From: Oxynema aestuarii AP17
GTDB lineage: Bacteria > Cyanobacteriota > Cyanobacteriia > Cyanobacteriales > Laspinemataceae
Reading direction: 5' to 3'
Assembly (NCBI RefSeq): GCF_012295525.1
Contig: NZ_CP051167.1
Coordinates: forward strand, 5,621,299 to 5,685,298
Length of the DNA stretch: 64,000 bases
Positions within the stretch are counted from its first letter, which is position 1; every line of letters begins with the position of its first letter. A program made the translations under genes and the position numbers. The notes beneath the pieces are model-generated. The model was not told the origin of the DNA, did not search any database, and saw only the letters and a list, made by a program, of their open reading frames with translations. Shown piece after piece: positions 1-28,421 of this stretch.

Positions 1-855
1 CACCCATGTTTTGTCTACTTTCCACCCTACCCAATTTGCAAGTTTAGTATCGGCATTGTAAGACAGAGCGTATTGTGGCTTTTCTAGTAACAAATTGTTG
101 ACAGAAGTGCTACTTTCCAGATTCCATCTAGCCTCTGTAGGATTGGCAATTGCGAGGAAATCACTCTTAAAGAAAACGTTATCTATGTAAACGAAATCCC
201 CACCCTGTAAAGAAAAACTTATTTTTGCAGGTTTCCCTCGAAACTCGGCTATTTCTGAATCAGAAAGATGTAACTTGAGTTGAAAAGTTTCAAAACCTTT
301 GCGGCCAAATCCTATTTGATTTTCAATTTCTGAGTAAATTTCTTTAACGATCGGAATTTCTCGGCTATTAGTTTCGTCAATTAAAAAGTCTGCATCTCGA
401 TCGAGAGCGATGGTAACATTTTTGCTTTGACCCTCTATTGTTTCAAGTTTAACATTGAGTTCTCCACTCTCAACAGGAGCAAAAACATCAAATCGTAAAT
501 TTCCCCAATCCGGAACCATGAACCAATCATGAGTAGCTTGAGTTGGGTTGCCTCCTCCCAGTTGCAAAGCATAATTTGGAAGACCAGTAGAACCGGGAAT
601 ACCTGCCACATCAATTAAAGCGCTTTGTTTCAAGGGGTTAGTAGGCGTATCAATGTACCAACTAGGAATATTTTGGCTGCTGTACTTATAAACAATGGCA
701 TCAAAATTTCCATTAAATAGAGTGGGAACGGCAAAATCCCCCCGCATTCCAGGTATAGGATTGTTTTCTTGTTCGACTGAAACTCGCTTAGTTTTTAAAT
801 ATTCTCCCCAGCCGTCATTGGGATAGCTGAATTCTTGAATTTCGTCTTTGCTCAA
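1..855 (-). CDS. Partial CDS whose 3' end lies beyond the window edge. It encodes a secreted-type protein whose visible C-terminal part begins a Serratia/NucA-type non-specific endonuclease (Endonuclease_NS) domain.
   Basis: The third frame is open from about 1020 down to base 1 with no stop (my translation). A strong SD AAGGAGG (860-866) precedes TTG at 855, directly after the TAA stop of the upstream gene at 872-874. The tail ...PQYALSYNADTKLANWVGWKVDKTWV resembles the start of the Serratia nuclease domain (…YTLNNNSTTKFANWVAYHITKD…). The ORF track does not list it because it runs off the window. Confidence 0.5.
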   Translation of the reverse strand, partial: MSKDEIQEFSYPNDGWGEYLKTKRVSVEQENNPIPGMRGDFAVPTLFNGNFDAIVYKYSSQNIPSWYIDTPTNPLKQSALIDVAGIPGSTGLPNYALQLGGGNPTQATHDWFMVPDWGNLRFDVFAPVESGELNVKLETIEGQSKNVTIALDRDADFLIDETNSREIPIVKEIYSEIENQIGFGRKGFETFQLKLHLSDSEIAEFRGKPAKISFSLQGGDFVYIDNVFFKSDFLAIANPTEARWNLESSTSVNNLLLEKPQYALSYNADTKLANWVGWKVDKTWV

Positions 856-1237
856 CTTACCTCCTTCATAATTATATGGACGTAATTGATTGCCCCCACC
901 CAAAACTGAGTGGAACCAACCCGTACCAATCCCCTCCCAAGGAAGCCATCTCTTCACCGTGGCTAAAGTTAGCATTAGTGTGGTCTGGGGTGTACCAGGG
1001 TCGTTCGGAGGAGGACAAATCCCCTAAGCGACGATAAATCGTTTGCCCATTTTCTGAAGGAATTTGACTCAGATTGAGGTCTGCCGTTCCCGCATACCAC
1101 GCTGCTGCTGCTTGATGAGGACCACCTGTGTCTAGATTTTGGTCGAAGTTCGCCCAGGAACCCAAGTTCACATTCCAATCCGCTGTAGACAGTTCTTTGC
1201 CGTTGAGGGTATTATCCGTCCCTTTGTTCTGATAGTA

Positions 1238-2359
1238 TAGCAGTCCTAAATGATTCATGGAAGCTTTTTTTGTTATAATATACACGGAAGATTCTCAATA
1301 TCAGACAGACCTCATGAATATCATAGACGAGCTAGATAATTTCATTGAAAATACCACAAATACCAAAGAAATGAAGAGAGCATTGGCAGCCAAAATGAAA
1401 TTATCTGGTCAACCCTCTAAGAAAATTGAAGAAATATTAAATGTTTCTTCGAGCTTCGTTAGTCAATGGAAAAATAAAGCAATTTTTGAGGGTGTTGAGA
1501 GTTTGAATCTTCAATACAAAGGAAGTAAAGGCTATCTAAAACCGGAAGAAAAAACACAAATCACTTCATGGATAAGACAACAAGAGTATTTGAGATTGTC
1601 TGACTTAAAACGATATTTGCAGCAAGAATACAACGTGATTTATTCTTCAAATCAAAGTTATTATGACTTGCTGAAAGCGGCTGGCATGAGCTGGAAAAAG
1701 TCGCAAAAAAAGAATCCAGCCAAAGATGAAAAGCTAGTCAAAAAAAAAGAAGAAGAAATTCAAAAGAAGCTTAAGGACTGGGAAGAGGATATCAAAGCTG
1801 GAAAGCTTGCTGTGTTTATGATTGATGAATGTCATCTTCTTTGGGGAGACGTCTTGGGTTTTGTTTGGGGAAGAAAAGATATAAGAGTCGAAATTCCCAT
1901 TAAAAACCAAAAAAGTCGCCAAAGTTATTATGGCGCTTTAGATTACCAAACTCATGAATTTATTCTTCAAGAATACCCGAAAGCCGATACCGACAATACC
2001 ATTCAGTTTATACAATACTTACGAGAACAAAGACCGGGACAAAAATTAGCCATTTTTTGGGATGGTGCCAGGTATCACGACTCTCAACAATTTCGAGATT
2101 TTTTAAAAGAGCTAAATGAAGGCTTAGAAGAAGATGAATGGTTGATTACTTGTACGAAGTTTGCTCCGAATGCTCCCGAGCAAAATCCAGTTGAAGATAT
2201 TTGGCTGCAAACTAAAAATTTCTTGAGAACATTTTATTTTTTATGTGATTCATTTAAAAGAGTTAAAGAGCTATTCAAGATATTTGCTGATGGCCAAGTT
2301 TTTGATTTCCCTAAGCTATATTCTTATGGATTTTTGCCACAAATGACTTAGGATTGCTA
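1238..2359 (+). mobile_element. IS630/Tc1-mariner-family insertion sequence, copy 1 (1122 bp). Its termini are TAGCAGTCCTAAATGATTCAT … ATGACTTAGGATTGCTA, and it is flanked by a TA target duplication (1236-1237 and 2360-2361).
   Basis: It has imperfect terminal inverted repeats. The three copies in the window are 100 % identical. It is AT-rich compared with the flanking DNA. Confidence 0.85.
1257..2351 (+). CDS. IS630-family DDE transposase (364 aa) with an N-terminal HTH. The candidate catalytic residues are D(FMIDECH), D(FWDGARYHD) and E(NPVEDIW).
   Basis: The identical ORF is present three times. It has the Tc1/IS630-like DDE pattern, and TA target duplications flank each element. Confidence 0.8.
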   Translation: MEAFFVIIYTEDSQYQTDLMNIIDELDNFIENTTNTKEMKRALAAKMKLSGQPSKKIEEILNVSSSFVSQWKNKAIFEGVESLNLQYKGSKGYLKPEEKTQITSWIRQQEYLRLSDLKRYLQQEYNVIYSSNQSYYDLLKAAGMSWKKSQKKNPAKDEKLVKKKEEEIQKKLKDWEEDIKAGKLAVFMIDECHLLWGDVLGFVWGRKDIRVEIPIKNQKSRQSYYGALDYQTHEFILQEYPKADTDNTIQFIQYLREQRPGQKLAIFWDGARYHDSQQFRDFLKELNEGLEEDEWLITCTKFAPNAPEQNPVEDIWLQTKNFLRTFYFLCDSFKRVKELFKIFADGQVFDFPKLYSYGFLPQMT

Positions 2360-5054
2360 TAGTTATCCGCATAAGTCACATTGTCCCACACTACCACTTC
2401 CGGATCGAGGACAGTGCTGAAAACGGGTTCTGGAAAAGTCGGGTCGTAATCATACGGATCGATTGTAGTCATTTGGAGGTCGCGATTAGAAGCGTTGGTT
2501 CCCCCAGCATTCGGAAAATACGTCCCCAACCGCTGAATCATTTCCGTATTGACAACCGCACCTTGACCCAATCCAATAAAATGCAATGGCGAGTTAAAAA
2601 TATCTCCTTGGGTACGGATAAGATTGCCATTAGCATCATAAAGACCAGACCCCTCTCCAACTTTACCACCATATTGTTGGTCGAGTTTCACCAAGGAAGC
2701 AAACATTGAATCAGCCGCAGCTTCTGCAAAACCTCCGTTATAGAAACTGCTGGCATCGAGACCCTGCATCCAATCGGCTAACAATACCAGTGGTTTTTCT
2801 TCTATAGGTGTTGTGTTAGTCGCTACCCAACTATTCCCGTTTAAGGTGACAGATTGCCATCCCCCAGTGGAGGGATTGTATTTCATCACCGAACCGCCTG
2901 CTTCTTGAATTTTACTGGCAAGAGCATTAATTTGACTGTTAAGCAAGCGGTTATGTTCTTCATCATTCTGTGGTTCTACACCGCGAGTCAATACCGTCAC
3001 ACTCGTAAACGGACTGGATGAAGGACTTGGCGGTAAGGGAGTTTTAAACTGACTATCCTCAACAACCGGCGTCGGTGAGCCATTAATCACCGCTTCAACC
3101 GCCCAATAATACTCTTGGCCCGCCGTCAACATCCGGTCATCAGGCAGTGTAAATTGGTCTTTAGCACCCGCTTGAGAACCCCCATTCCAAGTCCACACCC
3201 CCTCTTTCCAAGTCGCCGTCAAAATGCGATTCGGATTGTAATCCCTTCCTGGAGTGGGTGAGTCTAATTCCGGCCAAATATCCCTTGGTAACAACCCCTC
3301 CCCTTCAGGAAACACACTTACATAAAGCCTCACCTCTTTTACATCATCCTCGTCAACAGGAGTTGCACAAACATCCGTCTCATCACCCTCCCCATTAAAA
3401 TTCCACTTAAACGTCGGCGTCAAAGTCTCCTCATCAAACACCCCAATCGGATTTTGCAGATTGACAATCGGTCGAGAAGACGCCGTTGCCACACTAAACG
3501 GACTTCCTCCCCCCAAAGAAATCGGCCCGGTGTGAGAATTATTAGGAACTCCATAAGGAATCTTCCTCGTAAAAGAATCGATCGCATTCCCAATATCCTT
3601 AAAATCAGCCGCCAGACTAATAGACGGATTGATATCATCAATCGGCTTCTCCTCAAACACCTCCAGTGGCGTACTATTAACCGTCTGGAGCATCTCCTTC
3701 ACATTAAAAACAAAGGTACTATCAATCCCCGGATAACTCGCCGTCAAATACTTATTATCGCTCGAAAGCGACACCCCATTCGTAAATCCATTGGGAATCG
3801 GTCGCGTCGCCGCCACCAAAGTCGGATTGGGTCCCAAAGCATCCTTAATAATCCCAATATTGCCACCGGCTTTCGAGCCATCCACACTCTCGATTCCACT
3901 GCCAATCATTCGACCATTACGACCTGCAACAAAAGCATAATCCGTGCCACTTTCCTCATCATACATCACCGCCACAGACACCGCTTCATTGACATCAAAA
4001 TAATCGGTCAAACCGCCTAAAGTTAACTGAGCGTAATGAGTAACCGCCTCAAAACTTAGCGGGTCATTATTGAGAATAGTCAGCACACCATACCCTTTTG
4101 GCTCCTCACCCCGGCTAGTAAACACCATCTTCGTAGGGTCGTAAGTAGCCGCCAGTCCTTCCACTCCATAACCCCCTTCAACCCGACCAATTTGTTGATG
4201 CCATTTGCGAGTATTTTGATTGGGGTCAGCCGGATTGTCAGGCCGATCGCGAGGGTCAATATTAAACACTAAAATTTGTCCCCGTCCCGTATCAGACCCC
4301 CCTGGAGTTGTAGCGAACAACCGCGTCCCATCACTGCTCATCGCCAGTTGACGCAAACCCAGACTCGCATTCTCGACTTCAATCGTACCAATGTACTGAT
4401 TGTAAAAATCCGAACTGGGATTGATATCAATAACGTAAATCGCCCCAGTTTTCCAATCCGCCACATAAGCGTATTCATCCCGACTGTCGATCGCAATTGC
4501 ACTGGGAATCGCATGAGAAGGCAAATCAATCCCATTGATTCCTTCCACATTAGGTTGAGCATCCAACTGTTTGAAAGCCGTCAAATCAACGAGAGCCACC
4601 TGTGCCGACTTATTCAGAGTCACATAAGCGCGAGAAGCATTGCTAGTTGCAGCGATAGCTCTCGGTCCATCTTCTCTGTTTGGCGACCCCACAGGAATAT
4701 CCGCTAACAGTAAATCTTTACTATCCGTCTGCGCGATAACTTGTTCCGGATTGAGCGTGTTGACCAGACTAATCGTATCACTTGTCTGACGCGGCACCAT
4801 CGCCATTTCCACACAACCATCAATCGGTATTTTGACCCGTTCCGTTTCCGTTTCCGTTTGAGTATCTATCACTGAATGAGTCGTTCTTTTCAGAGAAACC
4901 TCCGCTTCAGCCAGCGGAACAAAATCCGTCGTTACCGCAATTCGTTCTTGCTCTGGCTGGCTCAAAGGCGCAAGTATAGTACCCGGATAGACTTTACCTC
5001 CCAGGTGGAAATTTACCTCCAAATCATCGAGATTCGTTCCGAAATTACGACCTT

Positions 5055-8000
5055 CTAAATACAACACTCGTCCTTGTTGTTCGTCATACTGAAGTTGGAG
5101 CCGTTCCAGAACGGGTTGAGTATCGGGTACGGGTTGAGTTGGCACATCAAGCACAAGTTCAAGCTCACATTCAGTTCCGTCGTATATGGCAGTCCTACAG
5201 TGGGAATAGTCAATGTAGTCACACTTCTTTCCGACGCATCAAGCAAAACCGGAACTGAAGCCAAAGCCAATGCTCCCGCACCTATTAAACCACCGGGGAC
5301 AAAGTAATCTGGACGGGAATAAGTCAAAGGTGATAGTTTCGGATAGGCTAGTGCTATTCCCCCTACGGCAATCAACCCCAAACCGACGCCAGCACTAAAT
5401 CCGGCCAACCTTAAATGCGCTACAGAATAATCAAATTTGGGAATGGCAATGCTATATTCCCCCGATTCATAAGCACCCCGCCACGGAGGAGAAGTCGTAT
5501 AAATCATCCCATCATCGCCGACAATTCCCGATTCCACCATCGTCCAGATCGGGTGCATCGTCTCACTTCCGACCCATTTATCTCCTTGTTGGAGTGCTGG
5601 GAGTTCCCCTTTGCGAAGGAAAAACACTTCCGTGCCAGGTTCCACCCCAGCAGGTGCCGGAATTGCGAATTGCAACGGGAATTCTAACGGTTGTTCACCA
5701 ATATCTAAGTTAAAGGAGCCAGCGAAGGAGAATTTCTCTGGAATCTCCAAGGAAAGGTTCGATTCCTCAATTTGTCCAATACTGACTGGGGTTTCCTCTG
5801 TTAATGCTCCAGGCGGAACCATCACCATCGCGCCATCATCGGAACGTACTGCACCCCCATTCACTCCAATTGATGCTGTACCGGAAATGGGTTCAACCAC
5901 CCGCACTTCAATCGTTTCCTCTGCTGCACCATGAACCACTGTCACCGTCGCATATCCGGATGACAATGCTGTTATCTTTCCATCTTCAGAAATTCGTACC
6001 ACATTCTCATCGCTGACGTAATAGCGAGTTCCGCTTGCTGCAGCGCTCAAATCGGGAGAATCGCTGAGGGAATTTAACCGTAATTGTAATTGGCGTTTAG
6101 CTCCCGGAACTAAAGTGATAGCATCCGGATAGGGGTCAATTCCTTCAAATTCTGCCAGTGCGACATTAAACTCCGCATCGTTAGTTGGTGTGGGAGTCGC
6201 TCCAATACGAATTGCCGTTACTGCTTCTTCATCCCTGTAAGAGACTCGCACTACGGCGACGCCTTCAGCATTTTTAGCTGTTATCGTTCCATCGCTTTCA
6301 ACGGTTACTAAATCGGGATTGTCAGTGCTGTAGGTTAGTTCGCTGGCGGGGATAACCACCCCTTTGCGATCGGCAAAATTGGCAGTGACGACTAAATTTG
6401 TCGTGCCATCCGATCGCAACTGCACATCGCGCTCCACCACGTCTAAACTCAATAATGGTGCATCGCTAACTTTTACAGTTATGGTCTCATTTACCGACCG
6501 AACGCCGCCATCGTTGGCAACTAAATCGAAACTGGCCGTTCCGACAAAATCCGGAGCCGGTTGGAAAGAAAGAGTTGTGCCATCAGCGAGCAATTCTGCG
6601 GTTCCATTGAGTGCATTGCTGATGTGGTAGGTCACTCGATCGCCATCGGGGTCGGTGACTAACGAGGATAAGTCAATGGTGGCGGGTAAATTAGCACTCA
6701 CCAGAACTGAATCGTTGATGAGAATGGGTGCTTGGTTGGTCAATAAATCCGTGCCATCTTGGAGCAATAATTGCAAGCGACCGTTTTCGTCATAGAAGGC
6801 ATTCGCTCCACTGCGTCCTAATGGATCGAGTACCGAAGTTAAGTAATGGTCGAATGATTGATGGTAATCGAAATGGGTGGTGACGTTATCGCGATCGGTG
6901 ACAGCGACCAAATCACCTTTTTCGTCATATTGATAGCGAATGACTTGGTTATTGAAATCGGTGACGGTATTGATGCGACCTTTAGCATCGCGACCCAATG
7001 CGATCGCTTCTCCGGTGGAACTGAATATTCCAGCGTCAGAGAAGGTTAAGGAATAACCATCGGCGTCAGTAACTTTAAGTAAATCTCCACTTTTTGCATC
7101 AATTTCGGCGACAACTCCTTCTGGAGTGGTCAGGGTGTACTGACCGCCAAATCGTGAATTCTCTGGGTTATAAGGAACGCCTGCTAGGTCATAATAGTTA
7201 CCATCTGGACCTAATATTAGGCGGGTGTCTGGTACGGAAAGGGTCATTCCCGAACCGTTATCAGCAACGAAGGTGGGATGATACCAACGTGCAGCTCCAT
7301 CACCGTACAAACTGAGGAAAGAATTCAGGCGATCGCCGGTGGGTTCAAAGCGGAAGTCGATTCGTTCTCCATCGGGAAGGGTAACGTAAACGCGAGTGTC
7401 GTCAGTGAAGGCATTTTGAATGTCGAGTAATTCTTGCTCGAAACTGGGGGGAGGCACATTGGTTCGCAAGTCGGTATCGACTAATTCCATGCGCCATCCG
7501 TATCCAAAATCATCGGAATCTTCGGCGTTTAAGCTGTCATAAGTCCGAGTCAAAATGATGGGGAAACCTGTAATGGGAATTTCTACTAGATCGTTGAAAG
7601 AAAGGTTGAGGTTGCCTTGTTTTTCTCCACCCACTTCTATCCGCTCTTCTATTGTGGAACCATTGCCTCCTTTATCGTAAGCAGACAAGCGCAATACATA
7701 ACTATCGTTCTGCAAAATTGACGGATCGAAGGTTCCCAACACTCCATCCACAACCGATTCTGTTCCTCGGAAAATTTCTCGGAACTCGCTACTGCCTCCG
7801 GCTGCTACTTCTAGGGTATAATAATCCAAATTTTCATCTTCAACTGTCCCTACAATTTCCAGGGATGCAGTCACTGTTTCATCAAACAGACCCTCTGCTA
7901 ATGCTACCACTGGAGAATCGGGGTCTGAACTATCGATTGCGGTAATTTCTAAGGTGGATTCTGTGACGTTAAAAGCCGCATCATAAGCAACTGCTCGAAC

Positions 8001-10382
8001 CTTAATGTTACCAAATTCCTCTATTTTAATTTTAGCCGTCCCCAACCCGGATAGTTCTACGGGTTCATCATTAATAAAGAGTTGCATTCCGGTAATGCCG
8101 ACATTATCAGTTGCTTGAAGGAAGAAGGTGATTTCCGAGCCGATATCGGCACGATAATCATCATCGACAAGGTACACATTACTCGGCAAGAGTTGAATTT
8201 GGGGTGCTACATTATCTGCTGTAACTGTTAGATTGAAAGTTTGAGTGGCGGTAGTTCCCAACTCATCGATCGCTTCAATAGTTATCGCATGAGTTCCGAC
8301 ATTTTCAACCGTAGGAATCCAACGCAACCGTCCCAACTCATCTACACTCATTCCCAAAGCAATGGAAGCATCATCTAAGCGATAGGTTAAACTGCTACCA
8401 TTCGGGTCGGTTGCTTGAATGTCGTAACTGAACAGGCGATTTGGAATTGCGACAGTAGGCGGTTCATTCGTATTAAAAACGGGAGGTAAATCATTTTGAA
8501 CCGTTAAAGTAAATCCTTGTGCTGCACCCAAACGACCATCATTCACTCCCACCACAACTTGATGAGTGCCAAAAGTAGGAGAATCCCAACGCAGTTCGCC
8601 AGTATTGACATCCAAAGTCATCCCATTGGGAACCGAGATGGGTTGATAAATTAAACCATCATTATCTGCATCAGTTGCTTCAATTTGATAGCGGTAAGGT
8701 ACGCCAGTGGCGGCGAAATATTTGGCGGTGGAGGTAATGACGGGTGGATGGTTAATGGCATCTGACCCGACTTCTATGGTGTAGGTTTGTCGGTTCACTC
8801 CATTTTGGCCGTCAATAACTAACACTTCCACTTCTACCGAACCCGACTGTTGTGCGGTTGGCGTCCAAGTAATCAATCCAGTTTCCGGGTCGATTTGCAT
8901 CCCATCGGGTGCAATTCCCAAACTGTAGCGTCCTCCATCATTTTCGAGGTCAGTGGAAGCGATTTGATAGCGATAATCAGTTCCGACAGCGGCGGCGGTG
9001 ATGGGGACAGAAACAATTTCTGGGGGAGTGTTGATTCCTCGAACTGTGAGGTCAAATTCTTGACCCACAAAATGTCCGGTTGCATCAGTGACGCGAATGG
9101 CAATCGTATGTTCGCCGATTTGGGTGGCGTTGGGTTGCCAAGATAGCATTCCGGAGTTGGGGTCAATAACCATTCCAGAAGGTGCTTTATCTAAAGTCCA
9201 TAACAGCAAATCGCCATCGGGGTCGAATCCAACAAGTTGATATTGATAAACCCGTTCTAAGTTGGTAATTAGATTTGGGGTGGAGGTGATGCTAGGTGCG
9301 CGATTGACAGTTTGATTCGATACATTTAACGTCCAGGATAAAGTGGTAGTATCTTCGCCGTCGTTAACTTCTAGAGAGATAGGATGGGAACCGAATTGAG
9401 AGGGAGTTGGCGTCCAAATGATGCGACCCTGAGAATCCAATTCCATTCCGGCGGGGGATTGAAGGAAGTTGAAGGTTAGGGGGTCGCCATCAGAATCCGT
9501 CAGCGGTAACTGATATAAATAAGTGGAACCGATGCGAACCGAACTGCGGGGGGTGGCGGTAATTTCTGGGGGGGTATTCGGACGCGGTTCGACTACAGTG
9601 GCGGTAATCGTTTGAGATGCTTCTCCACCGAGACTATCAATTGCTTTAACGGTGAATTGAAACTCGCCGGTTTGGGAGGGAGTCCAACGCAGAATGCCAG
9701 TGTCGGGATTGAGGGTAGCGCCAGTTGGGGGATTGACTAACTCGTAACGAATCTCAGCATCGCCATCCGCATCGAGTGCATTGAGACGATATTCAAATAG
9801 TTTACCGCGTTGAGGTTGAATGAATGTGGGTGAAGAGTTGGTAAATGCGGGGAGATTGTTGACAGGTGTCAACTTGACTTGGAACGATTGTAAATCGACT
9901 CCACCTAAATTATCTTGCACTCGCACTAAAACATTATAAACCCCCGAAGCAAGGTAAATACTGTTTGATTCACTCCGTTGGATTACAGTAGGTTTCCAAA
10001 CAATAACTCCAGTTTCGGAATCGATTGTCATTCCCTCTGGTTTTAACGGTAAATCATAAACTAAATTATCAGCATTGGGATCCTTTGCTATAGCGTTATA
10101 CCGAAAGAAACTTGACTCAAAAATCTCAGTGGGCGGAGTGCTGGTGAAACTAGGAGGTAGGTTAGAAGGGGGGTTCTCACGTTCGCCATTGCCAAAGTTG
10201 ATATTTTCTACAACTTGACCCGATTCTAATTTAACTGTATGAGCACGCTCTAATCCAAGAATCTGAGTGACTTTAATGTTATCAATTACCGCTCCATAAC
10301 TATCTCCTACTGTAGAATAAAACTCAATTGTTGTATTGTTACTGTTAGCAGTAAACTGCCAAGTTTGGGGTTGATACTGCAT
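5055..10382 (-). CDS. Giant cell-surface protein fragment (1775 aa). The N-terminal 40 aa are the 3' part of a DUF642 domain. This is followed by about 8-10 cadherin-like/He_PIG Ig repeats, a Big_2 domain, and a Gly/Ala-rich hydrophobic C-terminal region. It is the downstream half of a gene split by the MITE and IS copy 2.
   Basis: The repeats follow the pattern PP.I.S.P…Y.Y.…A.D.D.D.L.Y.L…P.GM.ID..TG.I.W.P. The N-terminus …QTWQFTANSNNTTIEFYSTVGDSYGAVIDNIKV is the conserved C-terminal end of DUF642. Confidence 0.7.
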   Translation of the reverse strand: MQYQPQTWQFTANSNNTTIEFYSTVGDSYGAVIDNIKVTQILGLERAHTVKLESGQVVENINFGNGERENPPSNLPPSFTSTPPTEIFESSFFRYNAIAKDPNADNLVYDLPLKPEGMTIDSETGVIVWKPTVIQRSESNSIYLASGVYNVLVRVQDNLGGVDLQSFQVKLTPVNNLPAFTNSSPTFIQPQRGKLFEYRLNALDADGDAEIRYELVNPPTGATLNPDTGILRWTPSQTGEFQFTVKAIDSLGGEASQTITATVVEPRPNTPPEITATPRSSVRIGSTYLYQLPLTDSDGDPLTFNFLQSPAGMELDSQGRIIWTPTPSQFGSHPISLEVNDGEDTTTLSWTLNVSNQTVNRAPSITSTPNLITNLERVYQYQLVGFDPDGDLLLWTLDKAPSGMVIDPNSGMLSWQPNATQIGEHTIAIRVTDATGHFVGQEFDLTVRGINTPPEIVSVPITAAAVGTDYRYQIASTDLENDGGRYSLGIAPDGMQIDPETGLITWTPTAQQSGSVEVEVLVIDGQNGVNRQTYTIEVGSDAINHPPVITSTAKYFAATGVPYRYQIEATDADNDGLIYQPISVPNGMTLDVNTGELRWDSPTFGTHQVVVGVNDGRLGAAQGFTLTVQNDLPPVFNTNEPPTVAIPNRLFSYDIQATDPNGSSLTYRLDDASIALGMSVDELGRLRWIPTVENVGTHAITIEAIDELGTTATQTFNLTVTADNVAPQIQLLPSNVYLVDDDYRADIGSEITFFLQATDNVGITGMQLFINDEPVELSGLGTAKIKIEEFGNIKVRAVAYDAAFNVTESTLEITAIDSSDPDSPVVALAEGLFDETVTASLEIVGTVEDENLDYYTLEVAAGGSSEFREIFRGTESVVDGVLGTFDPSILQNDSYVLRLSAYDKGGNGSTIEERIEVGGEKQGNLNLSFNDLVEIPITGFPIILTRTYDSLNAEDSDDFGYGWRMELVDTDLRTNVPPPSFEQELLDIQNAFTDDTRVYVTLPDGERIDFRFEPTGDRLNSFLSLYGDGAARWYHPTFVADNGSGMTLSVPDTRLILGPDGNYYDLAGVPYNPENSRFGGQYTLTTPEGVVAEIDAKSGDLLKVTDADGYSLTFSDAGIFSSTGEAIALGRDAKGRINTVTDFNNQVIRYQYDEKGDLVAVTDRDNVTTHFDYHQSFDHYLTSVLDPLGRSGANAFYDENGRLQLLLQDGTDLLTNQAPILINDSVLVSANLPATIDLSSLVTDPDGDRVTYHISNALNGTAELLADGTTLSFQPAPDFVGTASFDLVANDGGVRSVNETITVKVSDAPLLSLDVVERDVQLRSDGTTNLVVTANFADRKGVVIPASELTYSTDNPDLVTVESDGTITAKNAEGVAVVRVSYRDEEAVTAIRIGATPTPTNDAEFNVALAEFEGIDPYPDAITLVPGAKRQLQLRLNSLSDSPDLSAAASGTRYYVSDENVVRISEDGKITALSSGYATVTVVHGAAEETIEVRVVEPISGTASIGVNGGAVRSDDGAMVMVPPGALTEETPVSIGQIEESNLSLEIPEKFSFAGSFNLDIGEQPLEFPLQFAIPAPAGVEPGTEVFFLRKGELPALQQGDKWVGSETMHPIWTMVESGIVGDDGMIYTTSPPWRGAYESGEYSIAIPKFDYSVAHLRLAGFSAGVGLGLIAVGGIALAYPKLSPLTYSRPDYFVPGGLIGAGALALASVPVLLDASERSVTTLTIPTVGLPYTTELNVSLNLCLMCQLNPYPILNPFWNGSNFSMTNNKDECCI

Positions 10383-10386
10383 ATTA

Positions 10387-10487
10387 TAGCATTCCTAAAT
10401 CAGTCGAGTCAGGGCGATCCACCTGAAACCCCTGGGAGTGGGAGCATCTTGCTCCCTACATAGGTTACAAATCATTTAGGATTGCTA
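10387..10487. mobile_element. 101-bp MITE derived from the IS630-family element. It has the same termini (TAGCATTCCTAAAT…ATTTAGGATTGCTA) and is flanked by TA. It shares the TA at 10488-10489 with IS copy 2.
   Basis: Its ends match the IS terminal repeats at 12-13 of 15 positions. The internal about 70 bp are unrelated to the IS interior. A third TA lies at 10385-10386. Confidence 0.7.
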
Positions 10488-10489
10488 TA

Positions 10490-11611
10490 TAGCAGTCCTA
10501 AATGATTCATGGAAGCTTTTTTTGTTATAATATACACGGAAGATTCTCAATATCAGACAGACCTCATGAATATCATAGACGAGCTAGATAATTTCATTGA
10601 AAATACCACAAATACCAAAGAAATGAAGAGAGCATTGGCAGCCAAAATGAAATTATCTGGTCAACCCTCTAAGAAAATTGAAGAAATATTAAATGTTTCT
10701 TCGAGCTTCGTTAGTCAATGGAAAAATAAAGCAATTTTTGAGGGTGTTGAGAGTTTGAATCTTCAATACAAAGGAAGTAAAGGCTATCTAAAACCGGAAG
10801 AAAAAACACAAATCACTTCATGGATAAGACAACAAGAGTATTTGAGATTGTCTGACTTAAAACGATATTTGCAGCAAGAATACAACGTGATTTATTCTTC
10901 AAATCAAAGTTATTATGACTTGCTGAAAGCGGCTGGCATGAGCTGGAAAAAGTCGCAAAAAAAGAATCCAGCCAAAGATGAAAAGCTAGTCAAAAAAAAA
11001 GAAGAAGAAATTCAAAAGAAGCTTAAGGACTGGGAAGAGGATATCAAAGCTGGAAAGCTTGCTGTGTTTATGATTGATGAATGTCATCTTCTTTGGGGAG
11101 ACGTCTTGGGTTTTGTTTGGGGAAGAAAAGATATAAGAGTCGAAATTCCCATTAAAAACCAAAAAAGTCGCCAAAGTTATTATGGCGCTTTAGATTACCA
11201 AACTCATGAATTTATTCTTCAAGAATACCCGAAAGCCGATACCGACAATACCATTCAGTTTATACAATACTTACGAGAACAAAGACCGGGACAAAAATTA
11301 GCCATTTTTTGGGATGGTGCCAGGTATCACGACTCTCAACAATTTCGAGATTTTTTAAAAGAGCTAAATGAAGGCTTAGAAGAAGATGAATGGTTGATTA
11401 CTTGTACGAAGTTTGCTCCGAATGCTCCCGAGCAAAATCCAGTTGAAGATATTTGGCTGCAAACTAAAAATTTCTTGAGAACATTTTATTTTTTATGTGA
11501 TTCATTTAAAAGAGTTAAAGAGCTATTCAAGATATTTGCTGATGGCCAAGTTTTTGATTTCCCTAAGCTATATTCTTATGGATTTTTGCCACAAATGACT
11601 TAGGATTGCTA
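10490..11611 (+). mobile_element. IS630-family insertion sequence, copy 2, identical to copy 1. It is inserted in tandem with the MITE inside a DUF642 domain of the giant gene.
   Basis: The sequence is identical to copy 1, with TA at 10488-10489 and 11612-11613. Confidence 0.85.
10509..11603 (+). CDS. IS630-family transposase (copy 2).
   Basis: The 364-aa ORF is identical to the copy-1 transposase. Confidence 0.8.
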   Translation: MEAFFVIIYTEDSQYQTDLMNIIDELDNFIENTTNTKEMKRALAAKMKLSGQPSKKIEEILNVSSSFVSQWKNKAIFEGVESLNLQYKGSKGYLKPEEKTQITSWIRQQEYLRLSDLKRYLQQEYNVIYSSNQSYYDLLKAAGMSWKKSQKKNPAKDEKLVKKKEEEIQKKLKDWEEDIKAGKLAVFMIDECHLLWGDVLGFVWGRKDIRVEIPIKNQKSRQSYYGALDYQTHEFILQEYPKADTDNTIQFIQYLREQRPGQKLAIFWDGARYHDSQQFRDFLKELNEGLEEDEWLITCTKFAPNAPEQNPVEDIWLQTKNFLRTFYFLCDSFKRVKELFKIFADGQVFDFPKLYSYGFLPQMT

Positions 11612-14600
11612 TATTTTTATTGCCACTACCAATCCCTACAAATTCTGCCGACTGACCAGCTGCGGTTACAGTCATTGGTCTTTCGCTTCCTGCAGCAAGA
11701 AAACCATGAGCTGATAAGTCAAAAGTTACGAGGTAATCTTCGCCAGGAATAGTGTTAATCGTTTGTTTAATTCCCCCCGGACCTGGTGTACCATCAAGGT
11801 CAATACTATAATCACCATCAGAGGCTTGCCATAAACCTGTACCACAATGATCGACCGACCTCAGCATCACGTCCCAGCCTTCAAGTGTAGTCGAATTATA
11901 TCTTACTATTGTCCATGAATTTTTCGGGGCTGGTCCTCTTTCAAAACTCCCATTCTGAATTAAGTTTTCACCGATCGCCGGACTTAATAAAGGAAAGGTT
12001 TGTTCTAAACTAGAGGGAACTATTTCTCGAATCGTATAGGTATCCGCTGTCAAATTGGTAAATTGATAGGAGCCGGTTTCGTCTGTTAAAGGAGTGGCGG
12101 GATTATCTGTACTTGTTTTTGTGCTTGGTTCCTCAACATCTAACCTTCCATTATTATTCAAATCTAAATAAATTTCTACTCCAGCTAGTCCACTTTCTTC
12201 TGGGTCGAAAACACTGTTTTTATTAGAATCTAACCATTTAATTCCGCGAATTTCCCCTAAATCCGTCTGGTGGGCAACACTCAATTGAAAAATCTGAGTA
12301 TCAATTCCACCCTGAGTATCTTGCACCTCAACCGCAATCTCATATTCTCCCACATTGTCATCGGTTAAGTCGTTCCAACGAATTTCTCCAGTAATTGGGT
12401 CAACCGTCATTCCATCGGGAGGATTCACCAAGGAATAAGTCAGTTGGTCGTTTTCAGGGTCGAGCGCTCGGACTGAATAAAGATAATCGCTCCCCACATT
12501 GACTCGTTGTGAGGGTTCGCTAATAATAATTGGTGCGTAGTTCCCAGGCTTTTCTTGGATTAAAATATTGAAGGATTGCGTTACTTTTCCACCCCTGCCA
12601 TCTTCGGCATTCAGCGTTACTTTCTGTAAGCCTAGTTGTTGGGTATTGGGTTGCCAAGTTAAGGTTTGAGTTTCGGAATCAAAACTCATTCCTTCGGGCG
12701 CATTCATAACAGAAAAAGTCAGTTTATCCCTATCTGGGTCAGTAGCACTAATTTGATAGCGATACGGTTGATTGATATAAGCATCCACCACCGGCGTGGA
12801 CGTGAATATAGGGGGTCGATTCGGCGGAATTTCCGTCACTGACAGGGTAAAGCTTTGAACGTCTTTCCCCCCACGAGAATCCACTACCTCTACAACAACA
12901 GCATGAGTTCCAATCTCCTCAACCGTCGTCTCCCAAGTTATCACCCCAGTTTCTGAGTCAATTATCATCCCATTGGGAGCTGATAATAACGAATAACTCA
13001 ACCCATCATTATTCGCATCTTTGGCAATAACTTCATACCGATAAGAATTCCCTCCAATCGCTTCTAGTGGCGGTTTGCTTTCGATAACCGGGTCAGCATT
13101 TAACTGTCCAAGTACCGCCAATTCATAAGTAAATTGAACTCGATTGGGGTTGAAGAAGGTTAGCGAACCCAACTCAGTTATTTCAGTCGGGTCTAACTTT
13201 CCATCCTCGGCCAATTCAGAGAAATTATAATACGGCACTCCTTCTGGGGTAAATCCATCTGGGTTGCGCAGTAAAACTGTGGGGTCACTGATATTAGAAA
13301 CCGCCACCAATAAAGGCCCATCTACGCTATAATTGCCTTCATTGCGAATGGCAACTTCCGCATACAGTTCGTTGCTACTTTCATCAAAGCGGGTGCTTCT
13401 GTATTCTAAGGGGTTTGAAGGCGTAATATCAGTCAGCTTGCCAAACTCGGCTAACTCAATCGGCTGACTGCGATGATTGTCTTCACCGCTACTGACTGGC
13501 GGTTGTTGCTGAGTGCTTCCCACCAAGTTCAGGTTGCGGATGCTGACTGAGGTAGTCGTGTCGCGATCGCCATTCACCAATCGCAATACTAAATTAGCAC
13601 TTCCCGGACTCACCCCATTCAAATTGAGCGTCACCGTACCCGTACTTTCATTATATTCAACGCCAGCGGCTAATTTCGGTTCTTCCCCTTCGGTTAAATT
13701 AAAGAAAGCATCTCCCGAACCAATGGTATGCACCAAAGAATTCCCTTCTGCATCCAAAAGAGCGACTTCAAACGCATCGTTAATTGCATTACTATCGCTC
13801 CTGTCGAAATTGAGTGCAGCCAATGTAAAGACTAACTGAGAAGAAGTCTGTGGAATAGTCAATTCTTCTCGATGACTGACTGAAAAGTTTTCCCCTTCTA
13901 CCAAAACGATATCATCAACATTGCTAACTTCTGTGCGAGTAATGATGCGACTGGTAACGGTGGAATTGCCTGCGTCGTCAAGGGTTTGAATGGTAAAGGA
14001 ATTTTCCCCAACAGTAAGGTCAATTCCTGCAAAAGAGAATTGTCCCGTTGTATCCGCCGTGACGGTTGTGCCGGTTTCGATTAAAGTGACGGTAGCATTG
14101 GGTTCTGTCGTCCCTGTCAGGGTTACAGGTGATGCAGCGGTTTGAGCGTCGCCAGGGATATCGGTGTCGGATGCGGGGTCTAAGTCAAATGTCAGCGGAG
14201 GCGCGGTGGTATCTAGGGTAAAGTCATACTGGTACTCGGTAATGTTTCCCCATTCGTCAATGGCCTGCAAGTATAATGTGTGAGAGCCATCGGGGAGTGA
14301 ATCGCCGTAAATGGTGGCAAGTTGGGAAGGGGTGAGGGTAAAGTCGCCGGTTTCTAAAAGTTGCGAGTCAATGTTGATGAAGGAAGAGTTGTCAAAACTG
14401 GCAGTAAAACTAACAATGTGGAGAGGGTTGGTGAGAGTGCCAGTAATAGTCGGGTTGTAGGTTTTGCGATCGCTATCGGATATGCCAGTATCTTCTGCAA
14501 GTTTTGCGGTGATGATGGGAGACTGGTTGTTCTGTTCTGCGTAAGAAACGATTTGCTGTCCAATTTCAGAATTGCGCCAATCTGAATCGGGAGCAATCAC

Positions 14601-15146
14601 TTCATCCAGGTTAGTCACGATTCCGGTTGCAGCTGACATTTTGAAGGTGATATCGTTAAAGTCGGCATCCCCTCCAGGCAACCGTAAATCTTCCCAGGCA
14701 AATAAGTTCCCATCTCCAGTGACATCAACGAGTTGAGGTTGATGCAACGCTCGTTCCGGGTCACTGGGAGTTAACGAAAGGAAGGGTTTTTTGCTGCCAG
14801 TAACTTGCGGATTGTCAAAGAGTTCTTGGAGGGTGCCGTCAGGAATTAAAATTAAGCCAAATTCTGTTCCTTCCGGTAAAGAGAAAGTTTTCTCTCCTGA
14901 TTTGATGCCACGATTCCAATTGTAAGCTTCCAATTTTCCATCGAGTTTAGCCGCTTCTGTGGAGTCGGATATCAGAACATAACCTTCGTCGGAATTGGAG
15001 AGAGAACGTCTAGCGATTTCTTGGAAGAATTCAGCAGACCCCCATTCATATTCCGAGAGTCCAGCCATATTGAACAAACCGACAGTGCCTTGATAATAGC
15101 CGCCATCGAAGATGTATTCGATGTTAATAGAGCCAGTTTCTCCCAC
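11568..15146 (-). CDS. Giant cell-surface protein, upstream half (annotated from GTG at 15146). It contains a DUF4114 domain, He_PIG/cadherin-like Ig repeats, an SdrD-B-like domain, and the N-terminal two-thirds of a DUF642 domain that is truncated by IS copy 2. The last 8 codons come from the IS end. The same frame stays open upstream to about 16304 with no canonical start codon, across an acidic S/T/E/D repeat region.
   Basis: The DUF4114 motif is …DGGYYQGTVGLF…DLRLPGGDADFNDITF. SdrD-B is …GIKWLDSNKNSVFDPEESGLAGVEIYLD. DUF642 is LIQNGSFERGP…DYSIDLDG…YLVTFDLSAHG. By manual translation I found no stop in frame from 15147 to about 16304. Confidence 0.7.
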   Translation of the reverse strand: MGETGSINIEYIFDGGYYQGTVGLFNMAGLSEYEWGSAEFFQEIARRSLSNSDEGYVLISDSTEAAKLDGKLEAYNWNRGIKSGEKTFSLPEGTEFGLILIPDGTLQELFDNPQVTGSKKPFLSLTPSDPERALHQPQLVDVTGDGNLFAWEDLRLPGGDADFNDITFKMSAATGIVTNLDEVIAPDSDWRNSEIGQQIVSYAEQNNQSPIITAKLAEDTGISDSDRKTYNPTITGTLTNPLHIVSFTASFDNSSFINIDSQLLETGDFTLTPSQLATIYGDSLPDGSHTLYLQAIDEWGNITEYQYDFTLDTTAPPLTFDLDPASDTDIPGDAQTAASPVTLTGTTEPNATVTLIETGTTVTADTTGQFSFAGIDLTVGENSFTIQTLDDAGNSTVTSRIITRTEVSNVDDIVLVEGENFSVSHREELTIPQTSSQLVFTLAALNFDRSDSNAINDAFEVALLDAEGNSLVHTIGSGDAFFNLTEGEEPKLAAGVEYNESTGTVTLNLNGVSPGSANLVLRLVNGDRDTTTSVSIRNLNLVGSTQQQPPVSSGEDNHRSQPIELAEFGKLTDITPSNPLEYRSTRFDESSNELYAEVAIRNEGNYSVDGPLLVAVSNISDPTVLLRNPDGFTPEGVPYYNFSELAEDGKLDPTEITELGSLTFFNPNRVQFTYELAVLGQLNADPVIESKPPLEAIGGNSYRYEVIAKDANNDGLSYSLLSAPNGMIIDSETGVITWETTVEEIGTHAVVVEVVDSRGGKDVQSFTLSVTEIPPNRPPIFTSTPVVDAYINQPYRYQISATDPDRDKLTFSVMNAPEGMSFDSETQTLTWQPNTQQLGLQKVTLNAEDGRGGKVTQSFNILIQEKPGNYAPIIISEPSQRVNVGSDYLYSVRALDPENDQLTYSLVNPPDGMTVDPITGEIRWNDLTDDNVGEYEIAVEVQDTQGGIDTQIFQLSVAHQTDLGEIRGIKWLDSNKNSVFDPEESGLAGVEIYLDLNNNGRLDVEEPSTKTSTDNPATPLTDETGSYQFTNLTADTYTIREIVPSSLEQTFPLLSPAIGENLIQNGSFERGPAPKNSWTIVRYNSTTLEGWDVMLRSVDHCGTGLWQASDGDYSIDLDGTPGPGGIKQTINTIPGEDYLVTFDLSAHGFLAAGSERPMTVTAAGQSAEFVGIGSGNKNIAILSHLWQKSIRI

Positions 15147-17119: not shown

Positions 17120-17320
17120 GACGAGTTTCCATCCGTGCTTGTAGTTTAGATGGTGCTGCGTCCTGGCTTTTTTTGTAAAAAGTAGGATGCTCTAAGCGAA
17201 TTTTAAAAAACTTGAAAACTAATTTAACAACTCTATGCAATTTCCCTATCCGCACTTTTACTGAAGTTTTTAAGTTTTTTTGGGGAAGTTTTTGCCTAGG
17301 CTGTGTAAACTTTTCAGTAT

Positions 17321-18412: not shown

Positions 18413-18448
18413 GGGAGTGGGGAGATGATTGCGATTGAAGTCAGCTGC

Positions 18449-28404: not shown

Positions 28405-28421
28405 AGTTGCAACTGAAGGAT

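What the first reader, a model, noticed from the sequence alone, without database searches (positions are those of the whole stretch)
872..5154. A second large repeat-protein gene is interrupted by IS copy 1 and also rejoins in frame
ORF 2311..5154 (IPT-like N-terminus, beta-propeller-like repeats) reads into the IS right end. ORF 872..1285 starts in the IS left end. Removing 1238..2361 joins …NVTYADN to Y-YQNKGTDNTLNGKEL… with the codon phase preserved. This gives a protein of about 1050 aa that ends at TAA 872-874. All three IS copies are oriented the same way, and two of the three sit inside minus-strand coding sequence.
Basis: seen in the sequence. Interest (0 to 1): 0.6.

Follow-up and report, generated by a model that had tools for sequence, protein, structure and literature searches.

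The report
IS-broken giant nuclease-toxin pseudogene
The two ORFs are real pieces of a gene split by an IS630 insertion, but they are only the middle of one roughly 5,200-codon cyanobacterial gene for a giant surface protein ending in a DNA/RNA nuclease; in this strain that gene is broken by two IS copies, a miniature transposon and three single-base frameshifts, so it is an ordinary decaying gene.

Summary
IS copy 1 is 1238-2359, flanked by a TA duplication. Removing 1238-2361 joins ORF 2311..5154 to ORF 872..1285 in frame, giving 1,052 aa. Three related genomes carry the uninterrupted site, one of them 100% identical on both flanks.

- The TAA at 872-874 is a premature stop caused by a 1-nt insertion at about 944. 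The reading frame continues to window base 1 and, in a 99.8%-identical strain, 822 nt further into a NucA-type nuclease domain.
- The GTG at 5154 is not a start. Homologues run straight through from ORF 5055..10382, across a frameshift at about 5148-5172.
- That ORF joins ORF 11568..15146 across IS copy 2 plus a 101-bp MITE, and reaches ATG 17119 across a third frameshift at about 16295.

The repaired gene is 15,591 nt (5,196 codons) with no internal stop.

The family, found in filamentous cyanobacteria, behaves like a polymorphic toxin: the C-terminus is either a nuclease or an ADP-ribosyltransferase, and displaced orphan modules occur. Pentapeptide-repeat genes lie convergently downstream in 49 of 64 loci; I infer, without a test, that they encode immunity proteins.

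Verdict: a routine IS630-disrupted pseudogene and a new member of known kinds. Interest is low.

The parts
1..943 (-). Continuation of the gene after frameshift B. It holds the conserved PWEGIGTGWF motif, a conserved domain of unknown fold, and the first ~40 residues of the NucA-type nuclease domain. It runs off the window's left end.
   Evidence: This frame is open from about 1017 down to base 1. It aligns with more than 50 homologues at 31-71% identity. Pfam gives a partial Endonuclease_NS hit, profile positions 10-46, cut off by the window end. L001 continues a further 822 nt to a stop and has a full PF01223 hit of 85 bits.
944..944 (-). Frameshift B: one extra base (T on the minus strand). 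It creates the premature TAA at 872-874.
   Evidence: A global alignment of window 1237..1 with L001 shows only two differences. One is this indel: GATGGCTTCCTTGG in the window against GATGGC-TCCTTGG in L001.
945..1237 (-). Coding segment between IS copy 1 and frameshift B. It is the genuine part of 'ORF 872..1285'.
   Evidence: Homologues align with 1237..923 in frame -1. It is 100% identical to L001.
1236..1237 (.). TA target-site duplication, left copy. The right copy is at 2360-2361.
   Evidence: All three IS copies are flanked by TA on both sides. The empty sites in L001, L002 and L023 have a single TA.
1238..2359 (+). IS copy 1: a 1,122-bp IS630-family element with imperfect terminal inverted repeats. 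Its transposase ORF is 1257-2351 (364 aa), or 345 aa from the ATG at 1314 as NCBI annotates it.
   Evidence: NCBIfam NF033545 'IS630 family transposase' scores 164.8 bits against a cut-off of 100. Pfam finds DDE_3 and HTH_33. The inverted repeats match at 17 of the first 23 bases. The three copies are identical.
2362..3030 (-). Alpha/beta-hydrolase (lipase-like) fold domain, cut near its C-terminal end by IS copy 1. The nucleophile position reads GLGQG, with Gly where some homologues have the Ser of GFSRG.
3031..5147 (-). IPT/TIG-like domain (about 4845-5112), YncE/lactonase-type beta-propeller, and a conserved region of unknown fold.
5148..5172 (-). Frameshift A, located only to this interval. 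The frame changes from -3 to -2, as expected for one lost base or two gained.
   Evidence: The tblastn alignments of six homologues switch frame between about 5133 and 5157. Both frames are open across this stretch. No close relative was available for a DNA-level comparison.
5173..10384 (-). Upstream body of the same gene (ORF 5055..10382): the second half of DUF642, seven He_PIG Ig-like domains, a few RHS repeats, Cadherin_5/Big_9 and Big_2 domains, and two hydrophobic segments at about 5235-5402.
   Evidence: Pfam results are. Homologues run collinearly from here into the finding's ORF.
10387..10487 (.). A 101-bp MITE with IS-like terminal repeats, flanked by TA and abutting IS copy 2.
   Evidence: Sequence reading. 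The terminal-repeat pattern occurs 10 times in the window against 1.2 expected by chance, and only at the IS and MITE ends plus two 2-mismatch hits.
10490..11611 (+). IS copy 2, identical to copy 1, inserted at the same TA as the MITE.
   Evidence: Removing the MITE, the IS and the extra TA copies gives ...GSGNKN-N-MQYQPQTW... in frame. DUF642 then matches profile positions 1-156 of 157 at 80.6 bits.
11614..16294 (-). N-terminal body: an acidic Ser/Thr-rich linker, a second DUF4114, Big_13, three He_PIG domains, SdrD_B and the first half of DUF642.
   Evidence: Pfam results are. The frame is open from about 16305 through 15146.
16295..16295 (-). Frameshift 1: one base missing.
   Evidence: Alignment with O. 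acuminata plasmid pOSCIL6304.02 (94% identity) shows ATCTT-TTCCTATTT in the window against ATCTTCTCCCTATTT. Proteins P0111, P0112 and P0002 read through this point.
16296..17119 (-). Start of the gene (ATG 17119) and the first DUF4114 domain.
   Evidence: ORF 16250..17119. NCBI annotates it as the 289-aa 'DUF4114 domain-containing protein' QIZ73033.1.

Best explanation
Region 872-5154 is the middle of a single minus-strand gene. The gene starts at ATG 17119 and ends about 822 nt beyond the window's left end. It has about 5,196 codons.

Predicted product. The gene encoded a giant extracellular or surface multidomain protein:
- two DUF4114 domains, many Ig-like and cadherin-like domains, a DUF642 domain and a few RHS repeats;
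- two hydrophobic segments;
- an IPT-like domain, a YncE-type beta-propeller and a lipase-like alpha/beta-hydrolase fold domain that lacks the nucleophile serine;
- a conserved pre-toxin region;
- a C-terminal nuclease related to Anabaena NucA.

State in this strain (Oxynema aestuarii AP17). The gene is a pseudogene broken at six places:
- two identical IS630-family copies, each inserted at a TA that was duplicated;
- a 101-bp MITE;
- three single-base frameshifts, at about 16295, about 5148-5172 and 944.

What is shown: the IS insertions, their target duplications, the empty sites, the collinearity with homologues and the stop-free reconstruction.

What is inferred: the intact family works as a polymorphic toxin. 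A conserved scaffold presents an exchangeable C-terminal toxin, either a nuclease or an ADP-ribosyltransferase. The producer is protected by the convergently encoded pentapeptide-repeat protein, possibly acting as a DNA mimic. The export route is unknown.

For: Identity of the genome. P0001 is 100% identical and carries the NCBI name 'YncE family protein [Oxynema aestuarii]', on a contig of 6,357,750 bp. The same holds for QIZ73033.1.

The IS and its excision.
- Excision gives 1,052 aa with no stop.
- Empty sites with a single TA occur in L001, L002 and L023.
- The element is IS630 family.
- The three copies are 100% identical.

One gene, not several.
- Homologues run collinearly across frames -3, -2, [IS], -1, -2.
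- In L001 the equivalent ORF is continuous for 1,450 aa and ends with a full Endonuclease_NS domain of 85 bits.
- That domain aligns with Anabaena NucA (PDB 2o3b, 1zm8) at E about 1e-18, with the catalytic RGH and DNNR residues aligned.
- Frameshift B and frameshift 1 are each seen as a single-base indel against a close relative.
- DUF642 is restored across IS copy 2 plus the MITE.
- The full repair gives 15,591 nt, 5,196 aa and no internal stop.

Real decay rather than an error-ridden assembly. Five neighbouring genes checked in the window have full-length domain matches.

Toxin-like behaviour of the family.
- In homologues carrying PF18760 (ART-PolyVal), similarity to this gene ends at residue 258 of the pre-toxin region.
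- The three such loci examined have small co-oriented ORFs immediately downstream. Two of them (L077, L078) go on to an orphan nuclease fragment and a convergent pentapeptide gene; the contig of the third (L080) ends before that point.
- L001 is 100% identical over the C-terminal roughly 2.4 kb but only 35-65% identical further upstream, which points to module exchange.
- A pentapeptide-repeat gene lies within 2 kb downstream in 49 of 64 loci, almost always on the opposite strand. The annotated plasmid NC_019694.1 shows the same arrangement.
Against: - Frameshift A is located only by protein collinearity. No close DNA relative covers it.
- The AP17 genome is a PacBio CLR-only assembly (PMC7595944). 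One or more of the single-base indels could therefore be consensus errors; the IS and MITE insertions would still disrupt the gene.
- The last 822 nt and the downstream neighbourhood are taken from strain CCY1219, not from AP17. Whether AP17 keeps an intact nuclease domain or a pentapeptide gene is unknown.
- No signal peptide or known secretion-system domain was identified.
- The putative immunity gene is convergent rather than co-oriented, which is unusual for toxin-immunity pairs.
- Pentapeptide-repeat proteins are common in cyanobacteria.
- No expression or activity data exist for any member of the family.
Confidence: 0.88

Rival explanations
1. One reading: a separate gene of about 1,050 aa (IPT plus beta-propeller) whose only lesion is IS copy 1. 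It would start at GTG 5154 and end at TAA 872-874.
For: The joined ORF is continuous for 1,052 aa. NCBI annotates the 947-aa piece as a protein.
Against: No homologue starts or ends at those points. Proteins of 1,600-2,300 aa align across both. The TAA follows a 1-nt insertion that is absent from a 99.84%-identical strain. The conserved motif TIPxVGLPYTT lies in the upstream ORF, in another frame.
Confidence: 0.03
2. Some or all of the three single-base frameshifts are PacBio consensus errors. In the real AP17 genome the gene would then be broken only by the two IS copies and the MITE.
For: The assembly is PacBio Sequel CLR only, built with Canu and SMRT Link polishing (PMC7595944). Frameshift 1 lies in a short T/C run.
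Against: Frameshift B turns a single T into TT, which is not a long homopolymer. Five neighbouring genes show full-length domain matches, so indels are concentrated in a gene already inactivated by transposons, as expected for real decay. The reported data (about 1.28 million subreads averaging 6.8 kb for a 6.36-Mb genome) imply very deep coverage.
Confidence: 0.2
3. The fragments still work as a split gene. For example, a YncE-like propeller protein is expressed from 5154, or the C-terminal nuclease module is expressed from a start downstream of the IS.
For: Shorter natural forms of about 1,700-1,800 aa exist. They begin at the hydrophobic segment just upstream of the IPT domain (P0004 and P0005; ORF sizes).
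Against: In those short forms the hydrophobic N-terminus and the TIPxVGLPYTT motif are in the same protein as the propeller. Here frameshift A separates them. IS copy 1 cuts inside a folded alpha/beta domain. The only start for the downstream piece lies inside the IS.
Confidence: 0.05
4. The gene is rescued conditionally, by precise IS excision and/or programmed ribosomal frameshifting.
For: Excision would restore the frame exactly.
Against: That is true of every insertion that makes a target duplication. Six independent lesions would all have to be bypassed. I did not look specifically for a slippery heptamer or a stimulatory structure, and none was evident in the sequence at the shift sites. 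Relatives simply lack the indels.
Confidence: 0.02

Closest known systems
IS630 family insertion sequences (Tc1/mariner superfamily)
   Same: A single DDE transposase that scores above the NCBIfam IS630 cut-off, a length of about 1.1 kb, terminal inverted repeats, and insertion at TA with TA duplication. A derived MITE with matching ends sits nearby.
   Different: Nothing unusual. The three copies are identical, so transposition was recent. No match was found in the plasmid collection. An identical transposase is on record in a 6.31-Mb record from a JGI metagenome sample.
Polymorphic toxin systems with a Tox-NucA C-terminal domain (Zhang et al. 2012, PMC3482391)
   Same: A large repeat-rich presentation region that includes RHS repeats. 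A C-terminal NucA-type nuclease that is swapped for another toxin (ART-PolyVal) in otherwise homologous proteins. Displaced orphan toxin modules downstream. Mosaic identity between strains.
   Different: That paper's Tox-NucA entry does not list cyanobacteria, and it gives Imm36, Imm-SUKH and Imm-NTF2 as the immunity proteins. Here the conserved neighbour is a convergent pentapeptide-repeat gene. No T5SS, T6SS or T7SS trafficking domain was recognised. The scaffold (DUF4114, He_PIG, IPT, propeller, pseudo-lipase) is different.
Anabaena sp. PCC 7120 NucA nuclease and its inhibitor NuiA (PDB 1zm8, 2o3b)
   Same: The C-terminal domain of the intact allele aligns with NucA at E about 1e-18, with the catalytic RGH and DNNR residues aligned.
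   Different: NucA is a small secreted enzyme; that it is paired with NuiA is from my own knowledge. Here the domain is the tail of a protein of 1,700 to more than 5,000 aa. No NuiA-like gene was seen; a pentapeptide-repeat gene is there instead.
DUF4114 / IS630 / DUF4114 gene pair on Oscillatoria acuminata PCC 6304 plasmid pOSCIL6304.02 (NC_019694.1)
   Same: The first roughly 1.5 kb, upstream region included, is 94% identical to window 17293-15809. The homologous gene is likewise split by an IS630-family element. It ends in a nuclease region 44% identical to this one and is followed by convergent pentapeptide-repeat genes.
   Different: The IS there is a different, unrelated IS630 element, inserted at another position in the acidic linker. 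The plasmid gene lacks the long He_PIG/RHS section.

Membership tests
IS630 family insertion sequence | Transposase matches the curated IS630 family model above its cut-off | tested here: met
   NF033545 scores 164.8 bits against a cut-off of 100. Pfam finds DDE_3 at 55 bits and HTH_33 at 44 bits.
IS630 family insertion sequence | Insertion at a TA dinucleotide with TA target-site duplication | tested here: met
   TA flanks both ends of all three copies. The empty sites in L001, L002 and L023 have one TA.
IS630 family insertion sequence | Terminal inverted repeats and a length of about 1.1-1.2 kb | tested here: met
   The element is 1,122 bp. Its ends, TAGCAGTCCTAAATGATTCATGG and TAGCAATCCTAAGTCATTTGTGG, match at 17 of 23 positions.
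Polymorphic toxin system | C-terminal toxin domain varies among proteins that share the upstream scaffold | tested here: met
   Most homologues end in PF01223. In P0012, P0019, P0021, P0023, P0025 and P0051 the similarity stops at residue 258 of the pre-toxin region; five of these six then carry PF18760.
Polymorphic toxin system | Displaced orphan toxin/immunity cassettes downstream of the full-length gene | tested here: met
   L077 and L078: the ART-ending gene is followed by small ORFs, then a 135-aa Endonuclease_NS fragment and a convergent pentapeptide gene. This was seen in related loci, not in the window.
Polymorphic toxin system | Cognate immunity gene adjacent to the toxin module | tested here: inconclusive
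   A pentapeptide-repeat gene lies within 2 kb downstream in 49 of 64 loci. It is convergent and its function is untested. For AP17 the region lies outside the window.
Polymorphic toxin system | Recognisable trafficking or secretion module (T5SS, T6SS, T7SS, signal peptide and so on) | tested here: not met
   No such domain appears in the Pfam scans of any segment. The N-terminus MQILNNESLFPDSQ... does not look like a signal peptide to my eye; no predictor was run.
DNA/RNA non-specific endonuclease (Pfam PF01223, NucA-like) | Domain match above the gathering score, with the catalytic RGH and Asn residues | tested here: inconclusive
   Within the window only profile positions 10-46 are present (17.2 bits against a cut-off of 23), because the window ends there. 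The 99.84%-identical allele in L001 scores 85 bits and has DRGH...DNNR aligned with NucA.
YncE/lactonase-type 7-bladed beta-propeller | Pfam PF10282 match above the gathering score | tested here: met
   27.5 bits against a cut-off of 21.7, at residues 156-282. The match covers only part of the profile.
IPT/TIG domain | Sequence-profile match, or an E-set Ig-like fold resembling known IPT domains | tested here: inconclusive
Alpha/beta-hydrolase (lipase/esterase) | Alpha/beta-hydrolase fold | tested here: met
Alpha/beta-hydrolase (lipase/esterase) | Nucleophile serine in a GxSxG elbow | tested here: not met
   The window has GLGQG at the strand-helix elbow (residues 153-157 of the model). Close homologues have GFGQG, and a more distant subgroup has GFSRG.

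The most novel reading that the evidence does not exclude
The decayed gene belongs to a so far undescribed polymorphic-toxin family of filamentous cyanobacteria. In this family a giant DUF4114 / Ig-like / propeller / pseudo-lipase scaffold delivers an exchangeable C-terminal NucA nuclease. The cognate immunity protein would be a convergently encoded pentapeptide-repeat protein that blocks the nuclease by mimicking DNA, which would be a new class of nuclease immunity protein.
Probability: 0.4. Interest if true: 0.55.

Novelty: new member of a known kind. Interest (0 to 1): 0.22.

Why it matters
The direct result is about annotation.
- Several entries in the public AP17 annotation, including the 947-aa 'YncE family protein' and the 289-aa 'DUF4114 domain-containing protein', are fragments of one dead 5,196-codon gene.
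- The first-stage scan counted that one gene as two.
- Any insertion that makes a target duplication rejoins in frame once the element and one copy of the duplication are removed. A scan should therefore not treat in-frame rejoining as a signal.

More widely, the locus belongs to a large, uncharacterised family of giant nuclease-tipped proteins in Oscillatoriales and Nostocales. These proteins show the recombination behaviour of polymorphic toxins. They are also tightly linked to pentapeptide-repeat genes, which could be tested directly as DNA-mimic nuclease inhibitors.

Tried and rejected
- My first guess for frameshift B was the G5 run at about 886-890, and I used it to build the query. The L001 alignment placed the indel at 944 instead.
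- I tried to reach AP17 sequence beyond the window's left end through exact-protein look-ups. P0001 and the 345-aa transposase are not on record. The 364-aa transposase led only to another genome, where the IS sits elsewhere.
- I looked for a close DNA relative covering frameshift A. The metagenome scan found none. The plasmid collection has no match to window 2362-10386.
- IS copy 1 has no near match in the plasmid collection.
- Pfam finds no IPT/TIG domain in the N-terminal segment or in three homologous segments, even at E <= 10.
- I suspected other frameshifted genes in the window: the overlapping ORF pairs 27694-29225 and 43940-48360. Each ORF is a complete, separate gene.
- A literature search for a known link between pentapeptide repeats and NucA immunity found none. 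The nearest is a remark that YjbI-like pentapeptide genes lie next to GH-E nucleases (PMC5714182).

Full report
**1. Observation**

The region reads as the first-stage reader described.
- The ORF listing gives ORF 2311..5154 (minus strand, 947 aa, GTG) and ORF 872..1285 (minus strand, 137 aa, GTG).
- blastn of the element against the window finds three + strand copies, at 1236-2361, 10488-11613 and 18732-19857.
- The shared block is TA + 1,122 bp + TA. The three copies do not differ at any of the 1,126 positions.
- Removing 1238..2361, which is the IS plus one TA, yields a continuous minus-strand ORF of 1,052 aa. Its junction is ...NVTYADN-Y-YQNKGTDNTLNGKEL and it ends at TAA 872-874.

The element is an IS630-family insertion sequence.
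- NCBIfam NF033545 scores 164.8 bits against a cut-off of 100.
- Pfam finds DDE_3 and HTH_33.
- The terminal inverted repeats are imperfect, matching at 17 of 23 positions.
- The target duplication is TA.

**2. The insertion is real and recent**

A scan of species-representative genomes with the downstream protein segment returned three loci that carry the uninterrupted target...TATGCGGATAAC-TA-CTATCAGAAC... These are L001 (Phormidium sp. CCY1219), L002 (a Laspinema MAG) and L023 (Oscillatoria sp. HE19RPO). L001 matches the window at 100 of 100 bases per block from window base 1 to about 2575, with two exceptions, so the match runs across the IS site. This is the classical empty-site control.

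In-frame rejoining carries no information of its own. It follows automatically when an element and one copy of its target duplication are removed.

**3.

*(a) The 3' side.*
- After TAA 872-874 another minus-strand frame is open from about 1017 down to base 1.
- That frame carries the strongly conserved motif PWEGIGTGWF and aligns with more than 50 homologues.
- Its last residues begin a match to Endonuclease_NS.
- One of the two differences between L001 and the window over 1,237 nt is a single-base indel: GATGGCTTCCTTGG in the window against GATGGC-TCCTTGG in L001, at about 944.
- In L001 the ORF is continuous for 1,450 aa up to the contig edge. It ends 822 nt beyond window base 1 with a complete nuclease domain: PF01223 at 85 bits, and Anabaena NucA structures 2o3b and 1zm8 at E about 1e-18 with RGH and DNNR aligned.
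- TAA 872-874 is therefore a premature stop caused by a frameshift.

*(b) The 5' side.*
- tblastn of six homologues (P0002, P0004, P0005, P0007, P0028, P0056) against the window gives collinear alignments: frame -3 down to about 5133, frame -2 from about 5157 to 2359, then frame -1 for 1237-923 and frame -2 for 942-1.
- The motif TIPxVGLPYTT, present in every homologue in the same polypeptide as the IPT-like domain, lies at the end of ORF 5055..10382.
- GTG 5154 is therefore not a start. A frameshift within about 5148-5172 separates the two ORFs.
- In most related loci the corresponding regions are in one frame and one ORF.

*(c) Further upstream.*
- ORF 11568..15146 reads into IS copy 2.
- Next to that copy lies a 101-bp MITE (10387-10487) with matching terminal repeats, also flanked by TA.
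- Removing the MITE, the IS and the redundant TA copies joins ...GSGNKN-N-MQYQPQTW... in frame.
- The join turns a partial DUF642 hit (profile positions 1-107, 51.6 bits) into a full one (1-156 of 157, 80.6 bits).

*(d) The start of the gene.*
- The frame of ORF 11568..15146 stays open upstream to about 16305, through an acidic Ser/Thr-rich linker.
- ORF 16250..17119, which holds the first DUF4114 domain, connects to it across a one-base deletion at about 16295.
- That deletion is seen directly against the 94%-identical O. acuminata plasmid sequence. It is also seen against proteins P0111 and P0112, which read DYNDLIFSLFGATGTA.

*(e) Reconstruction.* I repaired the three indels, removed the two IS copies and the MITE, and appended the last 822 nt from L001. 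The result is a 15,591-nt CDS of 5,196 codons with no internal stop.

**4. What the finding's region encodes**

From the N-terminal side:
- A YncE/lactonase-type beta-propeller.
- A conserved region of unknown fold.

In the lipase-like domain the nucleophile elbow reads GLGQG. A more distant subgroup of homologues has GFSRG. In this lineage the domain is therefore probably not a serine hydrolase. IS copy 1 cuts near the C-terminal end of this domain.

**5. What the family does (inferred)**

- Homologues are abundant in Microcoleus, Tychonema, Okeania, Oscillatoria, Nostoc, Calothrix and other genera. They range from about 1,700 aa to more than 6,000 aa.
- Most end in the NucA-type nuclease. 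In a subset, similarity stops at residue 258 of the pre-toxin region, and five of those six proteins then carry an ART-PolyVal domain.
- The three ART-type loci examined have small co-oriented ORFs downstream. In L077 and L078 an orphan nuclease fragment and a convergent pentapeptide-repeat gene follow; the L080 contig ends before that point. This is the C-terminal displacement pattern of polymorphic toxins (Zhang et al. 2012, PMC3482391).
- CCY1219 and AP17 share the C-terminal roughly 2.4 kb at 99.8-100% identity, but identity falls to 35-65% further upstream. This again indicates module exchange.
- Downstream of the nuclease-ending genes, one to three pentapeptide-repeat genes lie within 2 kb in 49 of 64 loci, nearly always on the opposite strand. 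Pfam confirms the pentapeptide repeats in the L001 protein.
- The annotated plasmid pOSCIL6304.02 shows the same layout twice.
- I read these genes as candidate immunity genes, possibly DNA mimics. This rests on linkage alone.
- The papers I could search do not describe this pairing.
- No secretion module was recognised.

**6. Are the frameshifts real?**

The AP17 genome (CP051167) is a PacBio CLR-only assembly (PMC7595944), so consensus indels are possible. Two points argue against that. Five neighbouring genes in the window have full-length domain matches. And frameshift B is T to TT rather than a long homopolymer. Read mapping would settle it. Either way the IS and MITE insertions disrupt the gene.

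**7. Verdict**

Biologically this is a routine IS630-mediated pseudogenisation of a giant polymorphic-toxin-like gene, followed by further decay. It is a new member of known kinds and of low interest. The pentapeptide-nuclease linkage in related loci is the only lead with some novelty, and it lies outside this window.

Noticed in passing
L001 4561-5016 (minus strand); 49 of 64 related loci; L086 (NC_019694.1) 11991-12950, 13631-14560 and 17246-18577: One to three pentapeptide-repeat genes lie within about 2 kb downstream of the nuclease-ending giant genes, nearly always on the opposite strand. This linkage holds across nuclease identities down to about 35%. They are candidate DNA-mimic immunity proteins. 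I found no description of this pairing in the searchable literature.
   Followed up: partly
L077 5001-11405; L078 2303-8760; L080 2046-10326: Paralogues that share the scaffold but end in ART-PolyVal (PF18760) are followed by 66-68-aa co-oriented ORFs and an OGFr_N protein. In L077 and L078 an orphan 135-aa Endonuclease_NS fragment and a convergent pentapeptide gene come next. This is the C-terminal displacement pattern typical of polymorphic toxins.
   Followed up: partly
window 10387-10487: A 101-bp MITE whose terminal repeats (TAGCATTCCTAAAT... and ...ATTTAGGATTGCTA) match the IS ends. It is flanked by TA and directly abuts IS copy 2, so two elements used the same TA.
   Followed up: partly
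window 15809-17293; NC_019694.1 20306-21791: The gene's first roughly 1.3 kb plus about 170 nt upstream are 94% identical to a mobilizable plasmid of Oscillatoria acuminata PCC 6304. There the homologous gene is also split, by an unrelated IS630-family element at a different site. This suggests horizontal movement of these genes and recurrent IS hits on them.
   Followed up: partly
window 1-3350 compared with L001 1321-3535: Identity to strain CCY1219 is mosaic. It is 100% from window base 1 to about 2575, 81-98% over 2575-2975, and 35-65% beyond about 3060. The recombination breakpoint lies inside the lipase-like domain, not at the IS.
   Followed up: partly
window 2362-3030 (nucleophile elbow at about 2560-2574): The lipase-like alpha/beta-hydrolase domain has GLGQG (GFGQG in its closest homologues) where a more distant subgroup of the family has GFSRG. 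One lineage seems to have lost the catalytic serine.
   Followed up: partly
window about 5235-5402 (minus strand): Two hydrophobic, Gly/Ala-rich segments lie just upstream of the IPT-like domain. The natural short forms of the family (about 1,700-1,800 aa, such as P0004 and P0005) begin exactly here. The segment is therefore internal in the long forms and N-terminal in the short ones. It could be an anchor, a signal or a processing site.
   Followed up: no
window 15147-16300 (minus strand): About 385 consecutive sense codons in the acidic Ser/Thr/Glu/Asp-rich linker contain no ATG, GTG or TTG. This is why the ORF lister placed the start of the downstream ORF at 15146.
   Followed up: no
window 18734-19855: IS copy 3 is identical to copies 1 and 2. 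After in-silico excision it lies in no recognisable long ORF on either strand.
   Followed up: partly
window 2311-5154 and 16250-17119: Public annotation lists fragments of this pseudogene as ordinary proteins: a 'YncE family protein' of 947 aa (P0001) and a 'DUF4114 domain-containing protein' of 289 aa (QIZ73033.1). The 1,775-aa and 137-aa ORFs are not in the protein collection.
   Followed up: yes
window 43940-48360 (minus strand): A ShlB/FhaC-type outer-membrane transporter with a POTRA domain (618 aa) overlaps by 49 nt a TPR-CHAT protein (870 aa). Both are complete. I did not examine whether they relate to the giant gene.
   Followed up: no
L001 5169-7819: Downstream of the CCY1219 gene and its pentapeptide gene lies a 465-aa fragment. 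It resembles the middle part of the giant gene (Ig-like domains and RHS repeats) and ends at another transposase gene. Further debris of the same family sits at that locus.
   Followed up: no
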